IMG/VR virus record: IMGVR_UViG_2922401287_000007
Origin: a virus
Direction: 5' to 3' (one strand)
DNA: 64,000 bases
Shown here: positions 2,323 through 49,451 of the stretch, piece by piece
Layout: each line of letters begins with the position of its first letter
Numbering within the stretch: position 1 is the first letter of the stretch
Translations under genes and position numbers: made by a program
Notes under the pieces: generated by a model
Told to the model about the DNA's origin: nothing
The model's input: only the letters and a program-made list of their open reading frames with translations
Database searches by the model: none

Positions 2323-3484
2323 ATGGAGTTCATCGACCTCGACCGATATTTCGTACCGCTAAAAGCGGACCAGGAGCCTAGACTCGATATCGGCCGCTTT
2401 GGGGACCTCAATTAAGCGGCTGGCTTGGTTGGGAAGAACTGCGACGCCGCCGCCGCATCATTTTGCTCGCCGAAGCCGCTAGTGGAAAAACAGAAGAGTT
2501 CCGTTATCAGTGCGAGGCTCTGAGAGCGGCGGGCCATCCGGCGTTTTTCTTTCGGATCGAGGAGCTTGCAGAGCAAGGAACGGAAATAGCCTGCACAGGG
2601 AAAGCACAGAGCTTTTCGAGGCGTGGCGAGCTGGCCCGAACCCAAGAGATCACGCACAACATGCGCGTGATGCCATTTTGTCGGCACTCTTGGCACGACC
2701 GGGTGCCGATGCTTACCACGCGATGCAACGGCTCGCGGACGACCCCGTCTTCGCCTTGCGTTCCCATCGCTTTCACGAGCTAGCGCGCGGGAAGGCCGAG
2801 CGCGACGCCGAAAATCCCGCGTGGACCGCGGCGGAAGTCGTCACCTTCGAGCGGCAATTCACGGCGCCCGTCAAAACGGGTGAGGATCTGCTGCGCCTCG
2901 TCATGGGCGTCCTTGCCGATATCGCCCAGAACCTGACAAAGGGCGACGCCACGTCGCGCGCCCTGCTGGAACGCGCAAAGGACGAAGAGGAGGTCCAACA
3001 TTGGCTGGTCGAGCAAATGAACGCGCGCGCTCACGGCCGCTTTCATGCTTTCCGGGAAGCCGAGGTCGCGTTAGGCCACAAGCCGGATGTCATTGCCGCT
3101 TCCACCTCCGCCCCGTGTCAAGTGGCGGTTGAAATCAAGCACGGCGGCAAGAGCTGGTCCGCGCGCGATCTCGAAAACACCCTGCGGACGCAACTCGCGG
3201 AGGATTACCTCAAAGAGGAAAGCCGACGTCATGGCGTTCTCGTTATCACTCACCATCGAGACCGCCGCTGGCAACGCATCGGCGATAACAAGCCGATTTC
3301 CTTTTCCGACCTCATCGCATGGCTATCCGGTATCGCGGCGACGATCACGGAGAATGCCGTAGGCCAGATCAGCGTGCAATGCGCTGGCATTGATGCATGG
3401 AAGAGAGATACCAGCGCCGATCCTCCGAAGGCAACTGAAGCAAAAGCCAAATCTCGCGACAGGCGGCGGCCCGTGGCGTCTTGA
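2323..3484 (+). pseudogene. Remnant of a NACHT/STAND-type ATPase with C-terminal PD-(D/E)xK nuclease-like domain
   Basis: Walker A-like IILLAEAASGKT; frameshifts at ~2400 and ~2590; no Walker B before a jump to a C-terminal E...PD...VEIK segment. Confidence 0.6.
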
Positions 3485-3950
3485 TAGCGTAGGATTTGAT
3501 CCGGCAGCTGGCGGGGAGAAATTCTCGGGAGCTGTACGGTCAACTTCGGGCAGGTCGTGCAGGATGGGCCGCCGCGCCAGTCCGTTGAATTCACCTACAT
3601 GATCATGCCTGCGGGGTTCACCATGCCTGAAGTGCACTTCACTTGGCCCGGCGTCATCATGACTATGACGCCGACTCCGATGAAGACGGAATTCCCGGAC
3701 GCGGGCCACCTGTTCAAGGCCGAGAACCTTCCTTCCCTAAGCCTTTCGCTGGAAGTCACGCGCGGTCAGTTTTCCGACATATAACAATCGGTCCCGTCCA
3801 ATTCTCGGCGCGCAACAGAGCGGCGACATCAAAAACAGCCAGCGCAGCTAAGAACCCAACTGAGGCGGGCCTCCCGCCGGGGTTTCGGCTCGTGTAAAGC
3901 AAAACGGACCACTCCAAAAATCAAAAGGGGCCACTGAAGTTTAGTGGGGA

Positions 3951-45249: not shown

Positions 45250-46820
45250 CCGATCAGCGCCTCGATATCGACTGGCTTGATGTTGCGATCTCTCGCGCGC
45301 AGCCCGAGCAGCATCGAGAGCGCTACCGCGCCGTCGATCCGAAACCGCGCCTTGTCCTTGTCCAGCTTGCGATTGCCAGCGGGATCGCTGGTGGCGACCG
45401 CGTTTGCCATGTTCCAGTTCAGCACCGGATTGTTCGGATGGATCAGCTGGCGCTCGATCACGGCCAGCTCCAACGCATCGATAGCGGGGCCCATATCCCT
45501 GTAGCCTTGGCCCCAAGGCACCAGCCGCAGGCCGTCGCCGCCTTTTTCGCAGTCCTCGTAAGCCTGCAGCCCGATGCGGTCGAACTCGCGCAGGATGTAA
45601 TCCATGTGCCAGCGATCATAGGCCATGCCCTTGATGCGATAGCGCTGCGACATCTCAGCGATGAAGAGCGCGACCGCTTCGGGGTTGATCGTCTTGCCGG
45701 GGCTGTCATGCAGGCGGCCAGCTTCGGCCCACTCGCGGTAGCGATGCGAGCCCGAGCCGAAGTCGCGGCTTGAATGTTCGATCAGCTTGTCGCGCGGCTT
45801 CCAGAAATGTGGCTCGATGCGGCAGGGATCGCTAACCGAGCCGATCATCAGCGCGGTGAGATCGACGGTGCTCGACAGATCGAGCGAGAGATAGACTTCC
45901 TCGCCATCCTGCAGCTTGCTCTCGCCCGCGCAGGCCTTCCATTCGGCGCGGCTGATCAGCGAGGCGTGCGGCGAGACGCGCTGAGTCAGGAAAAGGTTGC
46001 GAACCTTCGGCTCCTCGGCGGGCATTCTGATCGCCTTGCGGATCGATGTCGCAAGGTCCTCATAGTCGCGGAATTTGGCGAGTGCCGGATTCGCCTTGTG
46101 CCATTGCTTCTCGTCGCCCAGCTCGCACTCCTCATCGGCGGCGTAGAGATGGCAGACGATGGCCGGATCGACGCCCGAGATTCCATCGTCGATCAACTTC
46201 GACATGATGTGCTCGGGATCGTTGCTCTGCGTCGAGATCACGATGAACAGCGGCTCATCGCGAGCGCCGAAGGAAGTATCGAGCACGTCATAGAGGTCGC
46301 GGTTCTTCGCCTGGGCCAGCTCGTCATAGATCACGAGGCTCGGCAGATAGCCGTGCTTGGTGCCAGCCTCGGCAGAGATCGCGCGATAGACCGAGCCGGT
46401 GCGCCGCGCGATCATGGTCTTGGTCGAGGGCACCAGCTCGATCATCTGGCCCAGCTCGGGATCGAGATCGACCATCTGGCGCGCAAATTTGTAGACGATG
46501 GCGGCCTGATCCCGATCATTCGCGGCGGAATAAATTTCGCCGTGGACGATAGCCTCGGGGCCGACCAGATGCGCGAGCACGATGGCCGCGATCAGCGCGG
46601 TCTTGCCATTCTTGCGCGCCATCGAGAGGATCGCGCGCCGCACTACGCGCCGCAGCTTCAGCTGGGGTTCATAGACGGCGCGGATGAACAGCTTCTGGAA
46701 CGGCTCCAGCTTGAAGGGCTCGCCTTGGCCCTTGCCCGAGGGCACGGTAAGTTTCTCGATAAACTTGATGACCGCCGTTGCGCGAGCCCTGTCGCGCCTA
46801 GCCTGCGATGAGTCCTGCAA
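45246..46820 (-). CDS. terL: Terminase large subunit
   Basis: MARKNGKT Walker A, VIYDELA Walker B and RIDGAVAL. Confidence 0.95.
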   Translation of the reverse strand: MQDSSQARRDRARATAVIKFIEKLTVPSGKGQGEPFKLEPFQKLFIRAVYEPQLKLRRVVRRAILSMARKNGKTALIAAIVLAHLVGPEAIVHGEIYSAANDRDQAAIVYKFARQMVDLDPELGQMIELVPSTKTMIARRTGSVYRAISAEAGTKHGYLPSLVIYDELAQAKNRDLYDVLDTSFGARDEPLFIVISTQSNDPEHIMSKLIDDGISGVDPAIVCHLYAADEECELGDEKQWHKANPALAKFRDYEDLATSIRKAIRMPAEEPKVRNLFLTQRVSPHASLISRAEWKACAGESKLQDGEEVYLSLDLSSTVDLTALMIGSVSDPCRIEPHFWKPRDKLIEHSSRDFGSGSHRYREWAEAGRLHDSPGKTINPEAVALFIAEMSQRYRIKGMAYDRWHMDYILREFDRIGLQAYEDCEKGGDGLRLVPWGQGYRDMGPAIDALELAVIERQLIHPNNPVLNWNMANAVATSDPAGNRKLDKDKARFRIDGAVALSMLLGLRARDRNIKPVDIEALIG

Positions 46821-47289
46821 ATTTGCTCTGCGAATTGGTAGCCTGCGAGCCCGCGCTGATGCGGCTGCGCGCCGCTGGCGTCAGGCCGAACTCGGCGGCG
46901 AAGCGCACCACATCGCCCGCATGCTTGCGCACGATGGAGACCAGCGGATTGACGGCGGCATCGCCGTACTTGGTCTTGATGATCATGCCGTTCATCAGCG
47001 GATCATTGCTCTGCATCCGCGCCAGCGATTCCGAGGCCATCCGCCATTGCCCGAAAGCGTGGCAGTAGCAGGCGAGCGCGGGGACATCGACTTTCGTCAG
47101 CAGGCCGAGCCGATGCAGCTCGGTCGCGGTGATCCACCACTCATCGGCGGCATAGCCGGTGATGAAGGTCGGCGGCTCGGGGACATCCGGCAGCTGCTCG
47201 GGCTGCGGCTCATCGTGCAGCTTGCGCTGGCCTGGATTCCCGCGCAGCAGCTTCAGATGCGTCGGTAGCGGTCGCTTGCCGGGTTTCAT
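46798..47289 (-). CDS. terS: Terminase small subunit (P27 family), in frame with the upstream mom-like ORF
   Basis: AGAGGA RBS; MKPGKRPLPTHLKLLRGNPG...FGLTPAARSRI. Confidence 0.9.
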   Translation of the reverse strand: MKPGKRPLPTHLKLLRGNPGQRKLHDEPQPEQLPDVPEPPTFITGYAADEWWITATELHRLGLLTKVDVPALACYCHAFGQWRMASESLARMQSNDPLMNGMIIKTKYGDAAVNPLVSIVRKHAGDVVRFAAEFGLTPAARSRISAGSQATNSQSKFAGLIAG

Positions 47290-48036
47290 TTCCATTCCTC
47301 TCTGTCGCTGGAGCGTGGGGATCGGTGCTGCGCCGTCGCTGTGCCGGTTGGAGCCAGCCATCGCCTGCTTCCCACGCACGCCGCGATACATGGTTGCGCC
47401 GCGCGCCTCGATTGCGCTGTAGGGCAGCGGCTCGCCGACGAGGCGAGCGCGAGCCGCCGGATTGAGAAAATAGATGTAGCGCAGCGTGTGGCCTTCGAGC
47501 GTCGGGCCGGTGCCGCGCCATCGCCCGCCCGTCGCCGCCAGATGCTGCAGCTTATTGCGCCCGGTGATCTGGCTCATCTTGTGAATGATGCTGCCGTCCT
47601 CGGCGATGTGCAGGTCCTTGTTGATCTTGATCGCGGTGAGCAGGAAGCCCGCCGCGCGATAGATCGTGCCGTCGCCGCATTGGCAGGCATCGGCGAAAGA
47701 GATGATCCATTCGATATGCGGGTAGTTCTTCCTGATCATGCGCAGCGCGATGCCGAGCGCGCGGCTTTCCGAATTGCGCGGCAGCGCATCGGTGAAGGCG
47801 AGCCGGTTCAATTCGAGGAAGCCGTTCCAGCCGGTATCGCGGACCAGATGCACGATGTTCGACTTCTGCAGGCTGGGCCCCAATTGCATCGCGCCCTCCA
47901 GCATGCCGTGCAGGAAGACGCCGAGCGACAGCTTCGAATTGCGAACGACCTTGCCGCTGTAATGGACGCGCCGGATCAGCGCGTCAGCATCGCGCTTGGC
48001 GATGGGGCGGACCTCGATCTCTTTCGCGCTGGTCAT
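46798..48036 (-). CDS. Mom-family adenine hypermodification (GNAT-like) protein, read through into TerS
   Basis: RVHYSGK, LELNRLAFTDALPRNSESRAL and IISFADACQCGDGTIYRAAGF motifs; no stop before terS. Confidence 0.8.
   Translation of the reverse strand: MTSAKEIEVRPIAKRDADALIRRVHYSGKVVRNSKLSLGVFLHGMLEGAMQLGPSLQKSNIVHLVRDTGWNGFLELNRLAFTDALPRNSESRALGIALRMIRKNYPHIEWIISFADACQCGDGTIYRAAGFLLTAIKINKDLHIAEDGSIIHKMSQITGRNKLQHLAATGGRWRGTGPTLEGHTLRYIYFLNPAARARLVGEPLPYSAIEARGATMYRGVRGKQAMAGSNRHSDGAAPIPTLQRQRGMEMKPGKRPLPTHLKLLRGNPGQRKLHDEPQPEQLPDVPEPPTFITGYAADEWWITATELHRLGLLTKVDVPALACYCHAFGQWRMASESLARMQSNDPLMNGMIIKTKYGDAAVNPLVSIVRKHAGDVVRFAAEFGLTPAARSRISAGSQATNSQSKFAGLIAG
47309..47377 (-). ncRNA. Atypical tRNA(Gly)-like element inside the mom ORF
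   Basis: GCGTGGG/CCCACGC 7-bp acceptor stem, U discriminator and CCA; GCTGG-CTCCAA-CCGGC arm; GACGG-CGCAGCA-CCG(A)TC arm. Confidence 0.65.
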
Positions 48037-48230
48037 TCGCGCCGCAGCACTTCAAGGGTCATGCCCGCGCCGAGCACGATGAGGCCGACGCTCTCGGGGA
48101 TCAGCTTGCGGAAGTGATCCTCGATCCATCTGGCCTGCTCGCGGCTCAGCACCTGATCGCATTTCACGACCAGTCGGTCGCCCTCGCGCAGCTCCAGCTT
48201 TGCAATTTCAAATCTGGTGGTTTCGGTCAT
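48033..48230 (-). CDS. Small hypothetical protein (65 aa)
   Basis: ATGA overlaps on both sides; KLELREGDRLVVK. Confidence 0.65.
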   Translation of the reverse strand: MTETTRFEIAKLELREGDRLVVKCDQVLSREQARWIEDHFRKLIPESVGLIVLGAGMTLEVLRRE

Positions 48231-48859
48231 CGGTCGTCCTGGTACGCGCGGCAAATTTCCGCCAGCGCGTTGCCGTTCTGGTTTTTGTTTTCCGAGGCCT
48301 CGCTCGGCGGTCCGAGGATCGCCGATGCGCGCTCTATCGCCTTCGCTACCAGCTCGGCCTGCGTCTCGTGCAGGATGAAGGTCATCTGCTGGAAGGGCGA
48401 GCGCTCGCCGTCGCTGATGATCGGCATGCCGCCAAGGCCTTCGACGCCTATGCCCATCTCGCGCAGCTCGGTCTCGCTGAAGCCAGTCAGATCGGCGAGG
48501 CCGAGCGAGGCGAGGTCGTTCAATTCGACGCGCAGCAGCGCATCGTCCCACTTGCCGTTCTCGGTCAGCTTGTTGTCGGCGATCAGATAGGCCCGCTTCT
48601 GCGCATCTGACCAGCCGCGAGCTACCATCGTCGGCACCTGATCGATGCCCAACTGCTCCGCAGCCAGCACTCTCCCGTGGCCAGCTATGATCGACCCGGC
48701 TTCATCGATCAGCACCGGGATGGTCCAGCCCCACTCGCTGATCGAGGCCGCGATCTGCTCGATCTGCTCCTCGGAATGCAGGCGGGCGTTGCGGGCGTTC
48801 GGCACCAGCTCGCTGATCGGGCGGCGCGATACCTGATCCGCAGGCCAGTTCCGGGCTAT
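48227..48859 (-). CDS. ParB/Srx-like N-terminal domain protein of the DNA-modification cluster
   Basis: NARNARLHSEEQIEQIAASI, IIAGHGR and IADNKL motifs; best RBS precedes ATA at 48859, so the start is uncertain. Confidence 0.8.
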   Translation of the reverse strand: MARNWPADQVSRRPISELVPNARNARLHSEEQIEQIAASISEWGWTIPVLIDEAGSIIAGHGRVLAAEQLGIDQVPTMVARGWSDAQKRAYLIADNKLTENGKWDDALLRVELNDLASLGLADLTGFSETELREMGIGVEGLGGMPIISDGERSPFQQMTFILHETQAELVAKAIERASAILGPPSEASENKNQNGNALAEICRAYQDDR

Positions 48860-49451
48860 TTCGGACCCTCCGAAATGGCTGTTTTTGTCGGGACAAACGC
48901 CCTTTTTGCTCGACTGCTGCATTCCGGCTCCCATGGTCACGCCACTGAAAACGCTGCGTTTTTGGCGTTGAGAAGGATCTTCCACGCGGCAACGTGATAC
49001 CGATGGAAAGGGCCGTTTTGATCAGTAAGTTAGCCGGGATCGCTTCCTGCTAACTGCGTCAGGTTCGGAGCGGTATTTTCGGAGCAAGCCTATGATCATA
49101 TTGCAGATTTTGCAGGCGGAGAACTTTCGTCCTTGAGCGTTTTCTGAATGTGCAGGCGCTAATTTTGGAGCGCCGCCAGCGCTCGGACCCGTCTCGCCAA
49201 CAGTTAGCGATCCTCCCCCGGCCCCCGTGGCATATTATTCCCCCATGTTTTCAATTGGTTAGATCGCATTCGAGGCGCGAACGATGCGAATGCATGGTCA
49301 AATTCGGACTACCGGAAGGCCCAGACCGGGCCCAAACGGCCTGATCTGGCTCTCCTTGCGCCCCGTTCACTCGCAATAGAACCAACTTCCACGCAAATAG
49401 CGTCGCTGTATCAATGGCTTGTGGCTACCATTCGGAGCCCACGATGGGGCA

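What the first reader, a model, noticed from the sequence alone, without database searches (positions are those of the whole stretch)
47309..47377. tRNA(Gly) mimic with encoded CCA embedded in a mom-family DNA hypermodification gene
Seen: the minus strand reads GCGTGGG AA GCAGGCGATG GCTGG CTCCAA CCGGC ACAGC GACGG CGCAGCA CCGATC CCCACGC T CCA (69 nt). It has a perfect 7-bp acceptor stem, a U discriminator and CCA. The anticodon arm has a 6-nt loop CUCCAA (tRNA-Gly UCC has CUUCCAA), the T-arm has a bulged A and a non-TTC loop, and the D-arm is reduced. It occupies codons ~220-243 of the mom-like ORF. Established: G1:C72, C2:G71, G3:C70, U73 and C35/C36 are bacterial GlyRS identity elements, and all have counterparts here. 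Mu Mom makes N6-carbamoylmethyladenine, a glycine-type adduct; from memory, recent work reports Gly-tRNA(Gly) as its donor (verify). Staphylococcal non-proteinogenic tRNA(Gly) also has an altered T-loop. Inference: the phage encodes, in cis, a dedicated non-ribosomal glycine carrier for its DNA-modifying enzyme, and tRNA finders would probably miss it.
Basis: partly seen in the sequence, partly recalled or inferred. Interest (0 to 1): 0.95.

Follow-up and report, generated by a model that had tools for sequence, protein, structure and literature searches.

The report
Mom gene carries private glycine tRNA-mimic
The last codons of this prophage's Mom (DNA-hypermodifying) gene also encode a real, conserved but deformed glycine-tRNA look-alike. 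It sits beside almost every close Mom relative and most likely carries glycine to the enzyme rather than to the ribosome.

Summary
The 69-nt sequence at 47309-47377 (-) is exactly as described. On its own it looks like chance: ARAGORN and Rfam find nothing, the folding z-score is -0.28, and a 7-bp stem plus NCCA is no rarer than expected. Comparison with relatives reverses that. The same element lies at or just after the 3' end of 74 of 80 Mom loci from genomes and 80 of 80 from viral contigs, across phyla. Compensatory changes occur in the acceptor stem, the central hairpin and a T-arm that always carries a bulged A. G1:C72, C2:G71, U73 and CCA are near-invariant, and a CC sits in the hairpin loop of 141 of 142 unique sequences. 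Together these make the bacterial GlyRS identity set. A model built only from other members finds the window copy (40 bits, E 2.6e-7) and ranks the host's three real tRNA-Gly genes above all other tRNAs. Mom reading frames cross the element in all three phases, or stop before it, so the constraint is on the RNA, not the protein. Mu Mom uses Gly-tRNA(Gly) (Silva 2026), and Mu has no such element. The dedicated glycine-donor role is inferred, not shown. A tRNA-Gly-like locus inside mom was noted in Dehalococcoides in 2011, and this scan found the family before on other DNA.

The parts
47309..47377 (-). tRNA-Gly-like RNA, short (D-arm-less) type, 69 nt
   Evidence: Sequence. Model R1, built only from long-type members of other phyla, gives 40 bits, E 2.6e-7, the only significant hit in the 64-kb window. 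Model R2 gives 84.4 bits.
47371..47377 (-). Acceptor stem, 5' strand (GCGUGGG), pairs with 47313-47319
   Evidence: Pairs 1-3 are invariant or nearly so. Pairs 4-7 show compensatory changes. RNAalifold predicts the same helix.
47359..47370 (-). 12-nt linker AAGCAGGCGAUG replacing the D-arm
   Evidence: Conserved within the short type. Long-type members have a 4-bp D stem here. RNAalifold adds a 2-bp contact to the stretch before the T-arm.
47343..47358 (-). Central ('anticodon') hairpin GCUGG-CUCCAA-CCGGC with UCC in a 6-nt loop
   Evidence: All stem pairs covary. The loop holds CC in 73/74 and 68/68 unique members, always as NCC. Loop length varies from 3 to 7 nt.
47320..47337 (-). T-arm analogue GACGG-CGCAGCA-CCG(A)UC with a bulged A (47322) in the 3' strand
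   Evidence: 100% paired in A4 and 99.7% in A6, with compensatory changes. The bulge is A in 68/68 viral members.
47309..47319 (-). Acceptor 3' strand CCCACGC, discriminator U (47312), encoded CCA (47309-47311)
   Evidence: The UCCA tail is found in 59/74 and 66/68 unique members.
47378..48036 (-). Mom-family enzyme proper (GNAT-type; Pfam PF25680 on residues 7-207, then the clade-specific PYSxIExRGAxMYRG end)
   Evidence: Pfam score 173 bits. It is 37% identical to Mu Mom, and Mu's catalytic R111 and S124 are conserved as R78 and S91 (residues from PMC13219725).
46798..47289 (-). Small terminase subunit (P27 type). Own start ATG at 47289-47287, RBS GAGAGGAA 19 nt after the CCA.
   Evidence: Pfam Terminase_4, 75.8 bits. 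It is a separate overlapping frame in the nearest genome.
47289..47291 (-). A-run one base shorter than in the nearest genome, which puts the Mom frame in frame with terS (412-aa fused ORF)
   Evidence: Alignment A1: GGAAATG here against GGAAAATG in both 99.7%-identical copies of G001.
48227..48985 (-). ParB_N-domain protein upstream of Mom (recurrent neighbour)
   Evidence: Pfam ParB_N. The same neighbour occurs in the Bacillota loci and in Psychrobacter phage Y8A.
45246..46820 (-). Large terminase subunit
   Evidence: Pfam TerL_ATPase plus TerL_nuclease.

Best explanation
The 69 nt are a gene for a small, stable, trans-acting RNA descended from tRNA-Gly, carried by a large clade of Mom-family DNA-hypermodification modules.

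Shown: the RNA keeps a tRNA-like acceptor/T-arm stack, the bacterial GlyRS identity set (G1:C72, C2:G71, U73, encoded CCA, C35-C36 in the hairpin loop) and G3:C70. It has lost or altered what decoding needs. The window copy has no D-arm, the anticodon loop is 6 nt without U33, the T-loop is not T-Psi-C, and an A is always bulged in the T-stem. It is tied to Mom and not to any downstream gene.

Inferred mechanism: the element is transcribed with mom and cut out by RNase P and 3' trimming like a tRNA. The host GlyRS charges it with glycine. Mom then uses it as its private glycyl donor to acylate N6 of adenine in double-stranded DNA. The adduct rearranges to N6-carbamoylmethyl-adenine, as shown for Mu Mom with host Gly-tRNA(Gly). 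The bulge lies among the three T-stem pairs that set EF-Tu affinity. With the crippled anticodon arm it would keep the charged RNA out of translation and free for Mom.

In this GC-rich prophage the Mom reading frame simply runs on through the RNA gene because no stop codon occurs. The 'tail' residues are a by-product.
For: (1) Linkage. R1 finds the element at or just after the 3' end of Mom in 74/80 genome loci and 80/80 IMG/VR loci, with no other significant hit in about 820 kb of flanks apart from two real tRNA-Gly genes. In 61 whole genomes (G001 plus 60 relatives drawn around it), R2 gives 5 hits. All lie in Mom 3' ends (4) or in a decayed Mom remnant (1).

(2) RNA-level selection.
- 95-98% of cells are paired, and 13/17, 15/22 and 19/22 pairs have double changes. 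None of 500 shuffles reaches this, and slid controls give 35-51% paired.
- RNAalifold finds the same helices on its own.
- Sequence-only BLAST hits already showed compensatory acceptor changes.
- Mom ORFs end before the element (39), stop inside it (11) or read through it in all three phases (26). Tails appear in two frames.

(3) Glycine identity. Pairs 1:72 and 2:71 are invariant and 3:70 nearly so. UCCA occurs in 59/74 and 66/68 members. NCC is in the loop of 141/142 unique members. These match the determinants in PMC10464925. R1 ranks the three genuine tRNA-Gly genes of a 10.4-Mb genome above every other tRNA.

(4) Not a decoder. ARAGORN and Rfam fail on nearly all members. 44/74 have even-length loops, A34 is the commonest first base, and the bulged A is invariant.

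(5) Trans-acting. The element occurs on the opposite strand (3 loci), in tandem duplicates, or behind an inserted gene.

(6) Enzyme side. Mom uses Gly-tRNA(Gly), rejects Gly-tRNA(Ala), and is thought to read the acceptor end (PMC13219725). The window Mom keeps both catalytic residues. EF-Tu reads three T-stem pairs (PMC3239215).
Against: - No expression, processing, charging or donor assay exists for any member.
- Mu Mom works with ordinary host tRNA-Gly. Mu, pAEv1818, JD024 and Q69 have no element anywhere in their genomes, so the chemistry does not need a private carrier.
- At least two Mom loci with ample flanks lack it (L089, L094).
- Lactobacillus GlyRS needs the arms and the whole L-shape, and prefers purine-4:pyrimidine-69. 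The window RNA has no D-arm and has U4:A69. About 88% of members have pyrimidine-4:purine-69, so efficient glycylation is not assured.
- In the window, excising the RNA would cut the mom message before its stop codon.
- The linkage counts come from one Mom clade, and related sequences are not independent.
Confidence: 0.6

Rival explanations
1. A cis-acting mRNA element. The tRNA-like fold would serve only as an RNase P/RNase Z cleavage signal. It would separate the mom message from the downstream terS (or methylase) message, or throttle production of the potentially toxic Mom. It would never be charged.
For: It lies on the same strand at the Mom 3' end in 151 of the 154 loci that carry it. In the window it ends 19 nt before the terS start codon. 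Cutting there would leave a stop-less mom message. Mu mom is known to be tightly regulated (Com).
Against: RNase P does not need C35-C36, U73 or the G1:C72/C2:G71 identities, yet these are the most conserved positions. Three loci have the element on the opposite strand, and 11 have it 650-1270 nt away behind another gene. The downstream gene is not constant: terS, a ParB-methylase, or others.
Confidence: 0.15
2. A decoy or regulator. The mimic would bind Mom as an inhibitor or chaperone. Alternatively it would soak up host factors that attack tRNA-Gly, such as anticodon nucleases or GNAT toxins that acetylate Gly-tRNA(Gly), and would not donate glycine.
For: It mimics tRNA-Gly without decoding features. 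GNAT toxins with tRNA-Gly specificity are discussed in PMC13219725.
Against: A general anti-defence decoy would not be tied to one enzyme family. All 5 hits in 61 genomes and all 155 in the Mom loci sit beside Mom. The encoded CCA and the full synthetase identity set point to charging.
Confidence: 0.12
3. An ordinary phage-borne tRNA-Gly that decodes GGN codons for phage protein synthesis.
For: A minority of members keep a 17-nt anticodon arm with NCC centred. Two real tRNA-Gly genes lie in two other Mom loci (L061, L098).
Against: The window copy has no D-arm and a 6-nt loop without U33. The T-stem bulge is invariant. ARAGORN and Rfam tRNA reject nearly all members. A34 is the commonest 'wobble' base.
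Confidence: 0.03
4. A chance cloverleaf-like fold in GC-rich coding sequence with no function.
For: Single-sequence statistics are unremarkable.
Against: Covariation, cross-phylum conservation in non-coding and coding settings, and detection by an independent model.
Confidence: 0.01

Closest known systems
76-bp tRNA-Gly-like 'pseudo-tRNA' embedded in the mom homologue of Dehalococcoides ssrA genomic islands (McMurdie et al. 2011, PMC3146451)
   Same: A conserved tRNA-Gly-like locus with apparent anticodon DCC lies inside the end of a Mom-family gene on a mobile element. It was also seen on a deep-sea fosmid.
   Different: That paper gave it no function, since Mom's tRNA dependence was then unknown, and described a complete 76-nt cloverleaf. 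The window copy is the 69-nt D-arm-less form. I did not fetch a Dehalococcoides sequence, so direct homology is inferred from the shared description and from long-type members that match it.
Phage Mu Mom with host Gly-tRNA(Gly) (Silva et al. 2026, PMC13219725; preprint 2023)
   Same: Same enzyme family (37% identity, catalytic R and S conserved). The proven glycyl donor is a tRNA-Gly, recognised by tRNA-specific features.
   Different: Mu has no element in its genome and scavenges all three host isoacceptors. Neither paper mentions Mom-linked tRNA-like genes.
Non-proteinogenic tRNA-Gly isoacceptors of Staphylococcus aureus that feed FemXAB peptidoglycan bridge synthesis (PMC12256121, PMC4574755; details partly from own knowledge)
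   Same: They are charged by the normal GlyRS but diverted from the ribosome to a tRNA-dependent transferase. The diversion rests on altered T-stem and T-loop features that weaken EF-Tu binding.
   Different: Those are full-size, decodable tRNAs encoded by the cell. This one is phage-borne, lacks a usable anticodon loop and (here) the D-arm, has a bulged T-stem, and would serve a DNA-modifying GNAT.
Host tRNA-Gly (CCC, UCC, GCC) of the nearest genome
   Same: GCG.../...CGC-U-CCA ends. The anticodon loop CUUCCAA compares with CUCCAA in the element. These are the top hits of the family model.
   Different: The host tRNAs are 74-75 nt with a D-arm carrying GG, a T-loop UUCGAUU, an unbulged T-stem and G4:C69. 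The element has U4:A69.
Aminoacylatable tRNA mimics: the tmRNA tRNA-like domain and the 3' tRNA-like structures of plant RNA viruses (own knowledge; PMC10870377, PMC8127992 listed)
   Same: An acceptor/T-arm mimic with CCA and the synthetase identity set but no decoding function.
   Different: Those are parts of larger RNAs with roles in ribosome rescue or viral replication and translation. This is a free-standing tRNA-sized gene tied to a DNA-modifying enzyme.

Membership tests
Canonical elongator tRNA (Rfam RF00005) | 7-bp acceptor stem, discriminator, CCA end | tested here: met
   GCGUGGG/CCCACGC, U73, encoded CCA. The stem covaries.
Canonical elongator tRNA (Rfam RF00005) | D-arm (3-4 bp stem, loop with G18 G19) | tested here: not met
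   The window has a 12-nt unpaired linker. Long-type relatives do have a D-arm.
Canonical elongator tRNA (Rfam RF00005) | 5-bp anticodon stem with 7-nt loop, U33, purine 37 | tested here: not met
   The loop is the 6-nt CUCCAA. Across the family loops are 3-7 nt, and 44/74 are of even length.
Canonical elongator tRNA (Rfam RF00005) | Regular 5-bp T-stem and T-Psi-C loop; recognised by tRNA finders at their thresholds | tested here: not met
   Bulged A and loop CGCAGCA. ARAGORN finds 0 tRNAs. Rfam gives no hit at E<=10. Among seven relatives only L054 reaches 25.6 bits, against the 29-bit cut-off.
Mom-linked tRNA-Gly-like RNA (the family defined here by models R1/R2; first noted by McMurdie 2011) | Lies at or within about 1.3 kb of the 3' end of a Mom-family gene | tested here: met
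   It sits inside codons 220-243 of the Mom ORF. The family shows this in 74/80 and 80/80 loci.
Mom-linked tRNA-Gly-like RNA (the family defined here by models R1/R2; first noted by McMurdie 2011) | Matches a covariance model built from other members only | tested here: met
   R1 contains no short-type sequences and gives 40 bits, E 2.6e-7, the only significant hit in the window.
Mom-linked tRNA-Gly-like RNA (the family defined here by models R1/R2; first noted by McMurdie 2011) | T-stem with one bulged nucleotide in the 3' strand; GCG/CGC-U-CCA end; NCC in the hairpin loop | tested here: met
   CCG(A)UC, UCCA and CUCCAA in the window.
Mom-linked tRNA-Gly-like RNA (the family defined here by models R1/R2; first noted by McMurdie 2011) | Direct sequence homology to the Dehalococcoides 76-bp locus of the 2011 paper | not tested
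   No Dehalococcoides sequence was fetched. The link rests on the paper's description.
Substrates of bacterial alpha2beta2 GlyRS | Determinants G1:C72, C2:G71, U73, C35, C36 (PMC10464925) | tested here: met
   All are present in the window RNA and conserved in the family. This is a sequence-level test only.
Substrates of bacterial alpha2beta2 GlyRS | Whole L-shape with arms; purine-4:pyrimidine-69 preferred (shown for L. plantarum GlyRS) | tested here: not met
   No D-arm, and U4:A69. The family is mostly Y4:R69. Whether Bradyrhizobium GlyRS shares this preference is unknown.
Substrates of bacterial alpha2beta2 GlyRS | Is actually glycylated | not testable with these tools
   This needs an aminoacylation assay.
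Non-ribosomal aminoacyl-tRNA donors that escape EF-Tu (S. aureus type) | Weakened EF-Tu binding through the T-stem pairs 49:65, 50:64, 51:63 | not testable with these tools
   The invariant bulge lies between pairs 50:64 and 51:63. The EF-Tu site is taken from PMC3239215. The effect is inferred.
Mom protein family (Pfam PF25680) | Profile match above cut-off and the catalytic Arg/Ser of Mu Mom (R111, S124) | tested here: met
   173 bits against a 27.1-bit cut-off. R78 and S91 align to R111 and S124.

The most novel reading that the evidence does not exclude
This Mom clade runs an orthogonal aminoacyl-carrier system. A phage-encoded, D-arm-less tRNA-Gly mimic that is invisible to EF-Tu and the ribosome is written into the 3' end of the enzyme's own reading frame. 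The host GlyRS charges it, and it is the preferred or obligate glycyl donor for DNA hypermodification. That would be the first dedicated tRNA-like cofactor for a DNA-modifying enzyme. The bulged T-arm and Y4:R69 would be its private recognition marks for Mom.
Probability: 0.45. Interest if true: 0.9.

Novelty: new variant of a known kind. Interest (0 to 1): 0.8.

Why it matters
Mom was shown only in 2023-2026 to take glycine from charged tRNA and put it on DNA. That work assumed the phage scavenges host tRNA.

Here most of a large Mom clade, from Bradyrhizobium prophages to gut Bacillota and a cultured Psychrobacter phage, is seen to carry its own deformed tRNA-Gly. This makes a concrete hypothesis directly testable: a private aminoacyl carrier, kept out of translation, that feeds a DNA-modifying enzyme.

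If true, it would:
- extend the idea of non-proteinogenic tRNAs from cell-wall synthesis to DNA hypermodification;
- explain a 'pseudo-tRNA' left unexplained since 2011;
- give a natural minimal GlyRS substrate;
- matter for anyone expressing Mom homologues in other hosts for DNA-modification tools.

It also shows that gene callers extend Mom ORFs through an RNA gene in GC-rich genomes, and that standard tRNA and Rfam scans miss the family.

Tried and rejected
- Single-sequence tests (ARAGORN, Rfam at E<=10, RNAfold z-score, stem-plus-NCCA counts) gave nothing. Alone they would have led to calling the element chance. They are uninformative in 62-71% GC sequence.
- RNA evidence: no RNA holder was listed for window:47100-47700.
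- For the Gallibacterium member (L036), small-share metatranscriptome contigs were laid. They cover only 3294-3346 and 3431-3500, downstream of the element, and say nothing about its expression.
- The MAFFT alignment of all 56 seeds together (A3) split the acceptor strand of the short type, so I dropped it and aligned short and long types separately (A4, A5).
- The seed sets A4 and A5 were picked with a pattern that required acceptor pairing, so their 100% acceptor pairing is partly by construction. The T-arm and hairpin figures, the BLAST-found cases and the model-found viral set A6 do not share that bias.
- The supplement of Silva et al. is not held. I therefore could not see whether their active 'Homolog A/B' constructs came from the element-bearing clade or carried the element.
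- I considered an attP or integration-site remnant and rejected it. Compensatory changes show selection on RNA pairing, and the element sits between mom and terS, not by an integrase.
- No structure or complex prediction was run, because the tools do not model RNA partners.
Full report
**What is there.** It has a 7-bp acceptor-like stem and a 12-nt linker. A 5-bp stem closes the 6-nt loop CUCCAA, followed by five unpaired bases. A 5-bp stem with a bulged A closes the 7-nt loop CGCAGCA. Then come the acceptor 3' strand, U and CCA. It covers codons 220-243 of a 412-aa ORF (46798-48036, minus strand). That ORF is Pfam Mom on residues 7-207 (173 bits) and small terminase Terminase_4 on residues 296-398. 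The neighbours are a ParB_N protein upstream and the large terminase downstream. This is a prophage packaging and DNA-modification module of a Bradyrhizobium-like genome (names of hits).

**Alone, it looks like chance.**
- ARAGORN finds no tRNA in the window.
- Rfam 15 has no match at E<=10 in 46700-48100.
- The minimum free energy of -26.4 kcal/mol is no better than shuffles (z -0.28).
- At 62% GC there are 133 perfect 7-bp stems per strand with 50-62 nt between them. Two in the window are followed by NCCA, against about four expected.

**The turning point.** Aligning Mom homologues showed that the tail after the conserved MYRG comes in two readings, SDGAAPIPTLQ-like and QRRxSTDPHAP-like. These are two frames of the same DNA.
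- acceptor GCGTGGG/CCCACGC here, against GCGCGGA/TCCGCGC, GCGGGAG/CTCTCGC, GCGTGGC/GCCACGC and GCGTGGT/ACCACGC elsewhere;
- T-stem GACGG/CCG(A)TC against GGCGG/CCG(A)CC and GGCGC/GCG(A)CC.

Several of these loci were found by plain BLAST on the 3' half, not by structure. In AT-richer hosts the element is intergenic. In two Bacillota MAGs it is followed by an AT-rich spacer, an RBS and a start codon. In the cultured Psychrobacter phage vB_PmaS_Y8A two unannotated tandem copies fill the gap between the Mom stop codon and terS.

**Statistics.** I made two seed alignments, one of 22 short-type sequences (68-70 nt, including the window) and one of 34 long-type sequences (74-76 nt, with a D-arm).
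- On the cloverleaf-like structure 97.6% and 95.8% of cells pair.
- 13/17 and 15/22 pairs show changes on both sides.
- No shuffle of 500 reaches the observed values, and sliding the partner by 1-3 columns drops pairing to 35-51%.
- RNAalifold independently returns the same helices for the short type, plus a 2-bp contact.

The seeds had been chosen with a pattern that demanded acceptor pairing, so I repeated the test on an independent set. A covariance model (R1) built from the long type only was run on 80 Mom loci from IMG/VR. It found 81 elements in 80 of 80 loci, all on the Mom strand at its 3' end and nowhere else in 345 kb. There 95% of cells pair and 19/22 pairs have double changes. The acceptor stem is 99.8% paired and the T-stem 99.7%.

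R1 contains no sequence of the window's type, yet it hits 47309-47377 at 40 bits (E 2.6e-7), the only significant hit in the 64-kb window.

**Linkage to Mom.**
- In the 80 genome loci, 74 carry the element within 1.3 kb after Mom (71 on the same strand, 3 on the opposite strand).
- Two of the six exceptions (L057, L097) are short contigs, and in L057 Mom reaches the contig end. At least two others (L089, L094) have ample flanks.
- In 61 whole genomes (G001 plus 60 relatives drawn around it, roughly 0.4 Gb) the short-type model gives five hits. Four are in the 3' ends of the four intact Mom genes found by protein search. One is in a decayed Mom remnant whose element has also decayed, with CTCTA instead of CTCCA.
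- The downstream gene is not constant: terS here and in phage Y8A, a ParB-methylase in Bacillota.
- The Mom frame ends before the element in 39 cases, stops inside it in 11, and reads through it in 26, entering in all three phases.

So the constraint is on nucleotides, and the partner is Mom.

**What kind of RNA.**
- Run over the whole 10.4-Mb nearest genome, R1 ranks the three true tRNA-Gly genes first (CCC 67.7, UCC 61.1, GCC 48.8 bits). The three Mom-embedded copies follow (40-41), then tRNA-Val, Phe and Asp (<=38). The family therefore descends from, or mimics, tRNA-Gly specifically.
- Pairs 1:72 (G:C) and 2:71 (C:G) never vary, and 3:70 is G:C in 64/68. UCCA ends 59/74 and 66/68 unique members. 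The hairpin loop holds CC in 73/74 and 68/68, always as NCC (ACC, UCC, GCC, CCC).
- These are the determinants of bacterial alpha2beta2 GlyRS: G1:C72, C2:G71, C35, C36, U73 (PMC10464925).
- The features needed for decoding are not kept. Loops run from 3 to 7 nt under maximal pairing and 44/74 have even length. Position 33 is often G. A34, unusual for bacterial tRNAs, is the commonest first base. The short type has no D-arm. The T-loop is mostly NGCRRYN rather than T-Psi-C. The T-stem always has one extra nucleotide in its 3' strand, A in 68/68 viral members.
- In the long type the D-loop dinucleotide and the T-loop covary (AG with GC in 21 cases, GG with UC in 8). An elbow contact may therefore be kept by an alternative pair, though few independent events may underlie this.
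- Rfam does not hold the family. Among seven members only one reaches 25.6 bits on the tRNA model, below the 29-bit cut-off. ARAGORN calls a handful 'tRNA-???' with 2- or 4-base anticodons.

**Mechanism.** Silva et al. (Nat Commun 2026, PMC13219725; preprint 2023) showed several things:
- Mu Mom transfers glycine from Gly-tRNA(Gly) to N6 of adenine in dsDNA, followed by an on-base rearrangement.
- All three E. coli isoacceptors work.
- Gly-tRNA(Ala) does not work.
- They speculate that recognition is at the acceptor end.

The window's Mom is 37% identical to Mu Mom and keeps the two residues they found essential, R111 and S124, here R78 and S91. The element is a private glycine carrier, cut out like a tRNA, charged by host GlyRS and used by Mom. 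EF-Tu affinity is set by three T-stem pairs (PMC3239215), and the invariant bulge lies among them. With the crippled anticodon arm it would keep the charged RNA out of translation, as the non-proteinogenic tRNA-Gly of S. aureus is kept for cell-wall synthesis.

These steps are inferred. The evidence shows an RNA under selection, its glycine identity set and its tie to Mom.

**Evidence against.**
- Mu, Aeromonas phage pAEv1818, Pseudomonas phage JD024 and Enterococcus phage Q69 have Mom but no element anywhere in their genomes, so Mom chemistry does not require it.
- L. plantarum GlyRS needs the whole L-shape and prefers purine-4:pyrimidine-69. The window RNA has no D-arm and has U4:A69, and the family is about 88% Y4:R69. 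This may be a private mark for Mom, or it may make the RNA a poor GlyRS substrate.

**Rivals.**
- A pure RNase P processing or regulatory signal is the main rival (0.15). It does not explain the conserved identity positions, the opposite-strand copies, or the copies displaced by an inserted gene.
- A decoy or inhibitor role (0.12) does not explain the exclusive tie to Mom.
- A decoding tRNA (0.03) and chance (0.01) are effectively excluded.

**Prior knowledge and novelty.** McMurdie et al. 2011 (PMC3146451) described a conserved 76-bp tRNA-Gly-like 'pseudo-tRNA' with anticodon DCC embedded in the mom homologue of Dehalococcoides ssrA islands and of a deep-sea fosmid. They proposed no function. 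The Mom papers of 2023 and 2026 do not mention any Mom-linked tRNA-like gene. Searches for 'momylation', and for Mom together with tRNA-Gly terms, found nothing else.

Notes of this scan show that other readers and agents found the same family on other DNA (e1-5345785, e1-5057176, e1-3481606). One note on a Mesorhizobium prophage saw a D-arm-less 69-nt glycine tRNA but no tie to Mom (e1-5352258). Here the short type is tied to Mom in every case examined.

I rate the window copy a new variant of a known but uncharacterised kind: the D-arm-less form, read through by the Mom ORF. The functional link remains unpublished in the library searched and is directly testable.

**Side observation.** The window differs from the two 99.7%-identical copies in the nearest genome by one missing A in the run before the terS start codon (GGAAATG against GGAAAATG). 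This fuses the Mom frame to terS. terS keeps its own RBS and ATG. Whether this is a real mutation or a homopolymer sequencing error cannot be told.

Noticed in passing
window 47289-47291 (-): The window has a one-base shorter A-run than both near-identical copies in the nearest genome. This places the Mom frame in frame with terS and gives a 412-aa Mom-TerS ORF. Another database protein (P0001, 348 aa) is a similar fusion. It could be a real mutation or a homopolymer sequencing error.
   Followed up: partly
G001:C1 20858-21610, 4672256-4672993, 5532756-5533508 (loci L001, L015, L012): The nearest genome carries three copies of the Mom + element + terS module. Two are 99.7% and one 88% identical to the window. 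In the 88% copy the stretch around the element is far better conserved than its flanks.
   Followed up: partly
L104 3662-3729 and 3734-3802 (Psychrobacter phage vB_PmaS_Y8A, OQ059336.1): A cultured, fully sequenced phage has two tandem copies of the element between the Mom stop codon and terS. Neither is annotated and ARAGORN finds neither. It would be a convenient experimental system.
   Followed up: yes
L101 1449-1516 (G002:C58): A decayed Mom 3' fragment still carries a decayed element: acceptor mismatches and CTCTA instead of CTCCA. Enzyme and RNA appear to decay together.
   Followed up: partly
Alignment A5, columns 17-18 and 54-55: The D-loop dinucleotide covaries with the T-loop: AG with GC in 21 cases, GG with UC in 8. 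This is as if the G18:U55 elbow contact were replaced by A18:G55. The events are probably few and clustered by lineage.
   Followed up: partly
Acceptor pair 4:69 in A4, A5, A6: About 88% of elements have pyrimidine-4:purine-69 (U:A or C:G). The host tRNA-Gly genes have G4:C69, and L. plantarum GlyRS prefers purine-4:pyrimidine-69. This may be a mark that sets the mimic apart from host tRNA-Gly.
   Followed up: no
L090 1756-2598 and 2480-3250: Two adjacent Mom-family ORFs lie in one Lachnospiraceae genome, followed by one element and a ParB-methylase gene.
   Followed up: no
window 47380-47440 (-), residues ~200-219 of Mom: The element-bearing clade has a conserved C-terminal extension, PYSxIExRGAxMYRG, that Mu Mom lacks. 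It lies directly before the RNA gene. Whether it contacts the RNA is unknown.
   Followed up: no
L077, L082, L127: These loci hold tandem pairs of elements after one Mom gene. Some copies lack an encoded CCA.
   Followed up: no
L060, L085, L076, L087, L093, L074, L084, L067, L070, L088, L068: In these Bacillota loci an ORF of about 160 aa with no Pfam match sits between Mom and the element, giving a gap of 650-1270 nt.
   Followed up: partly
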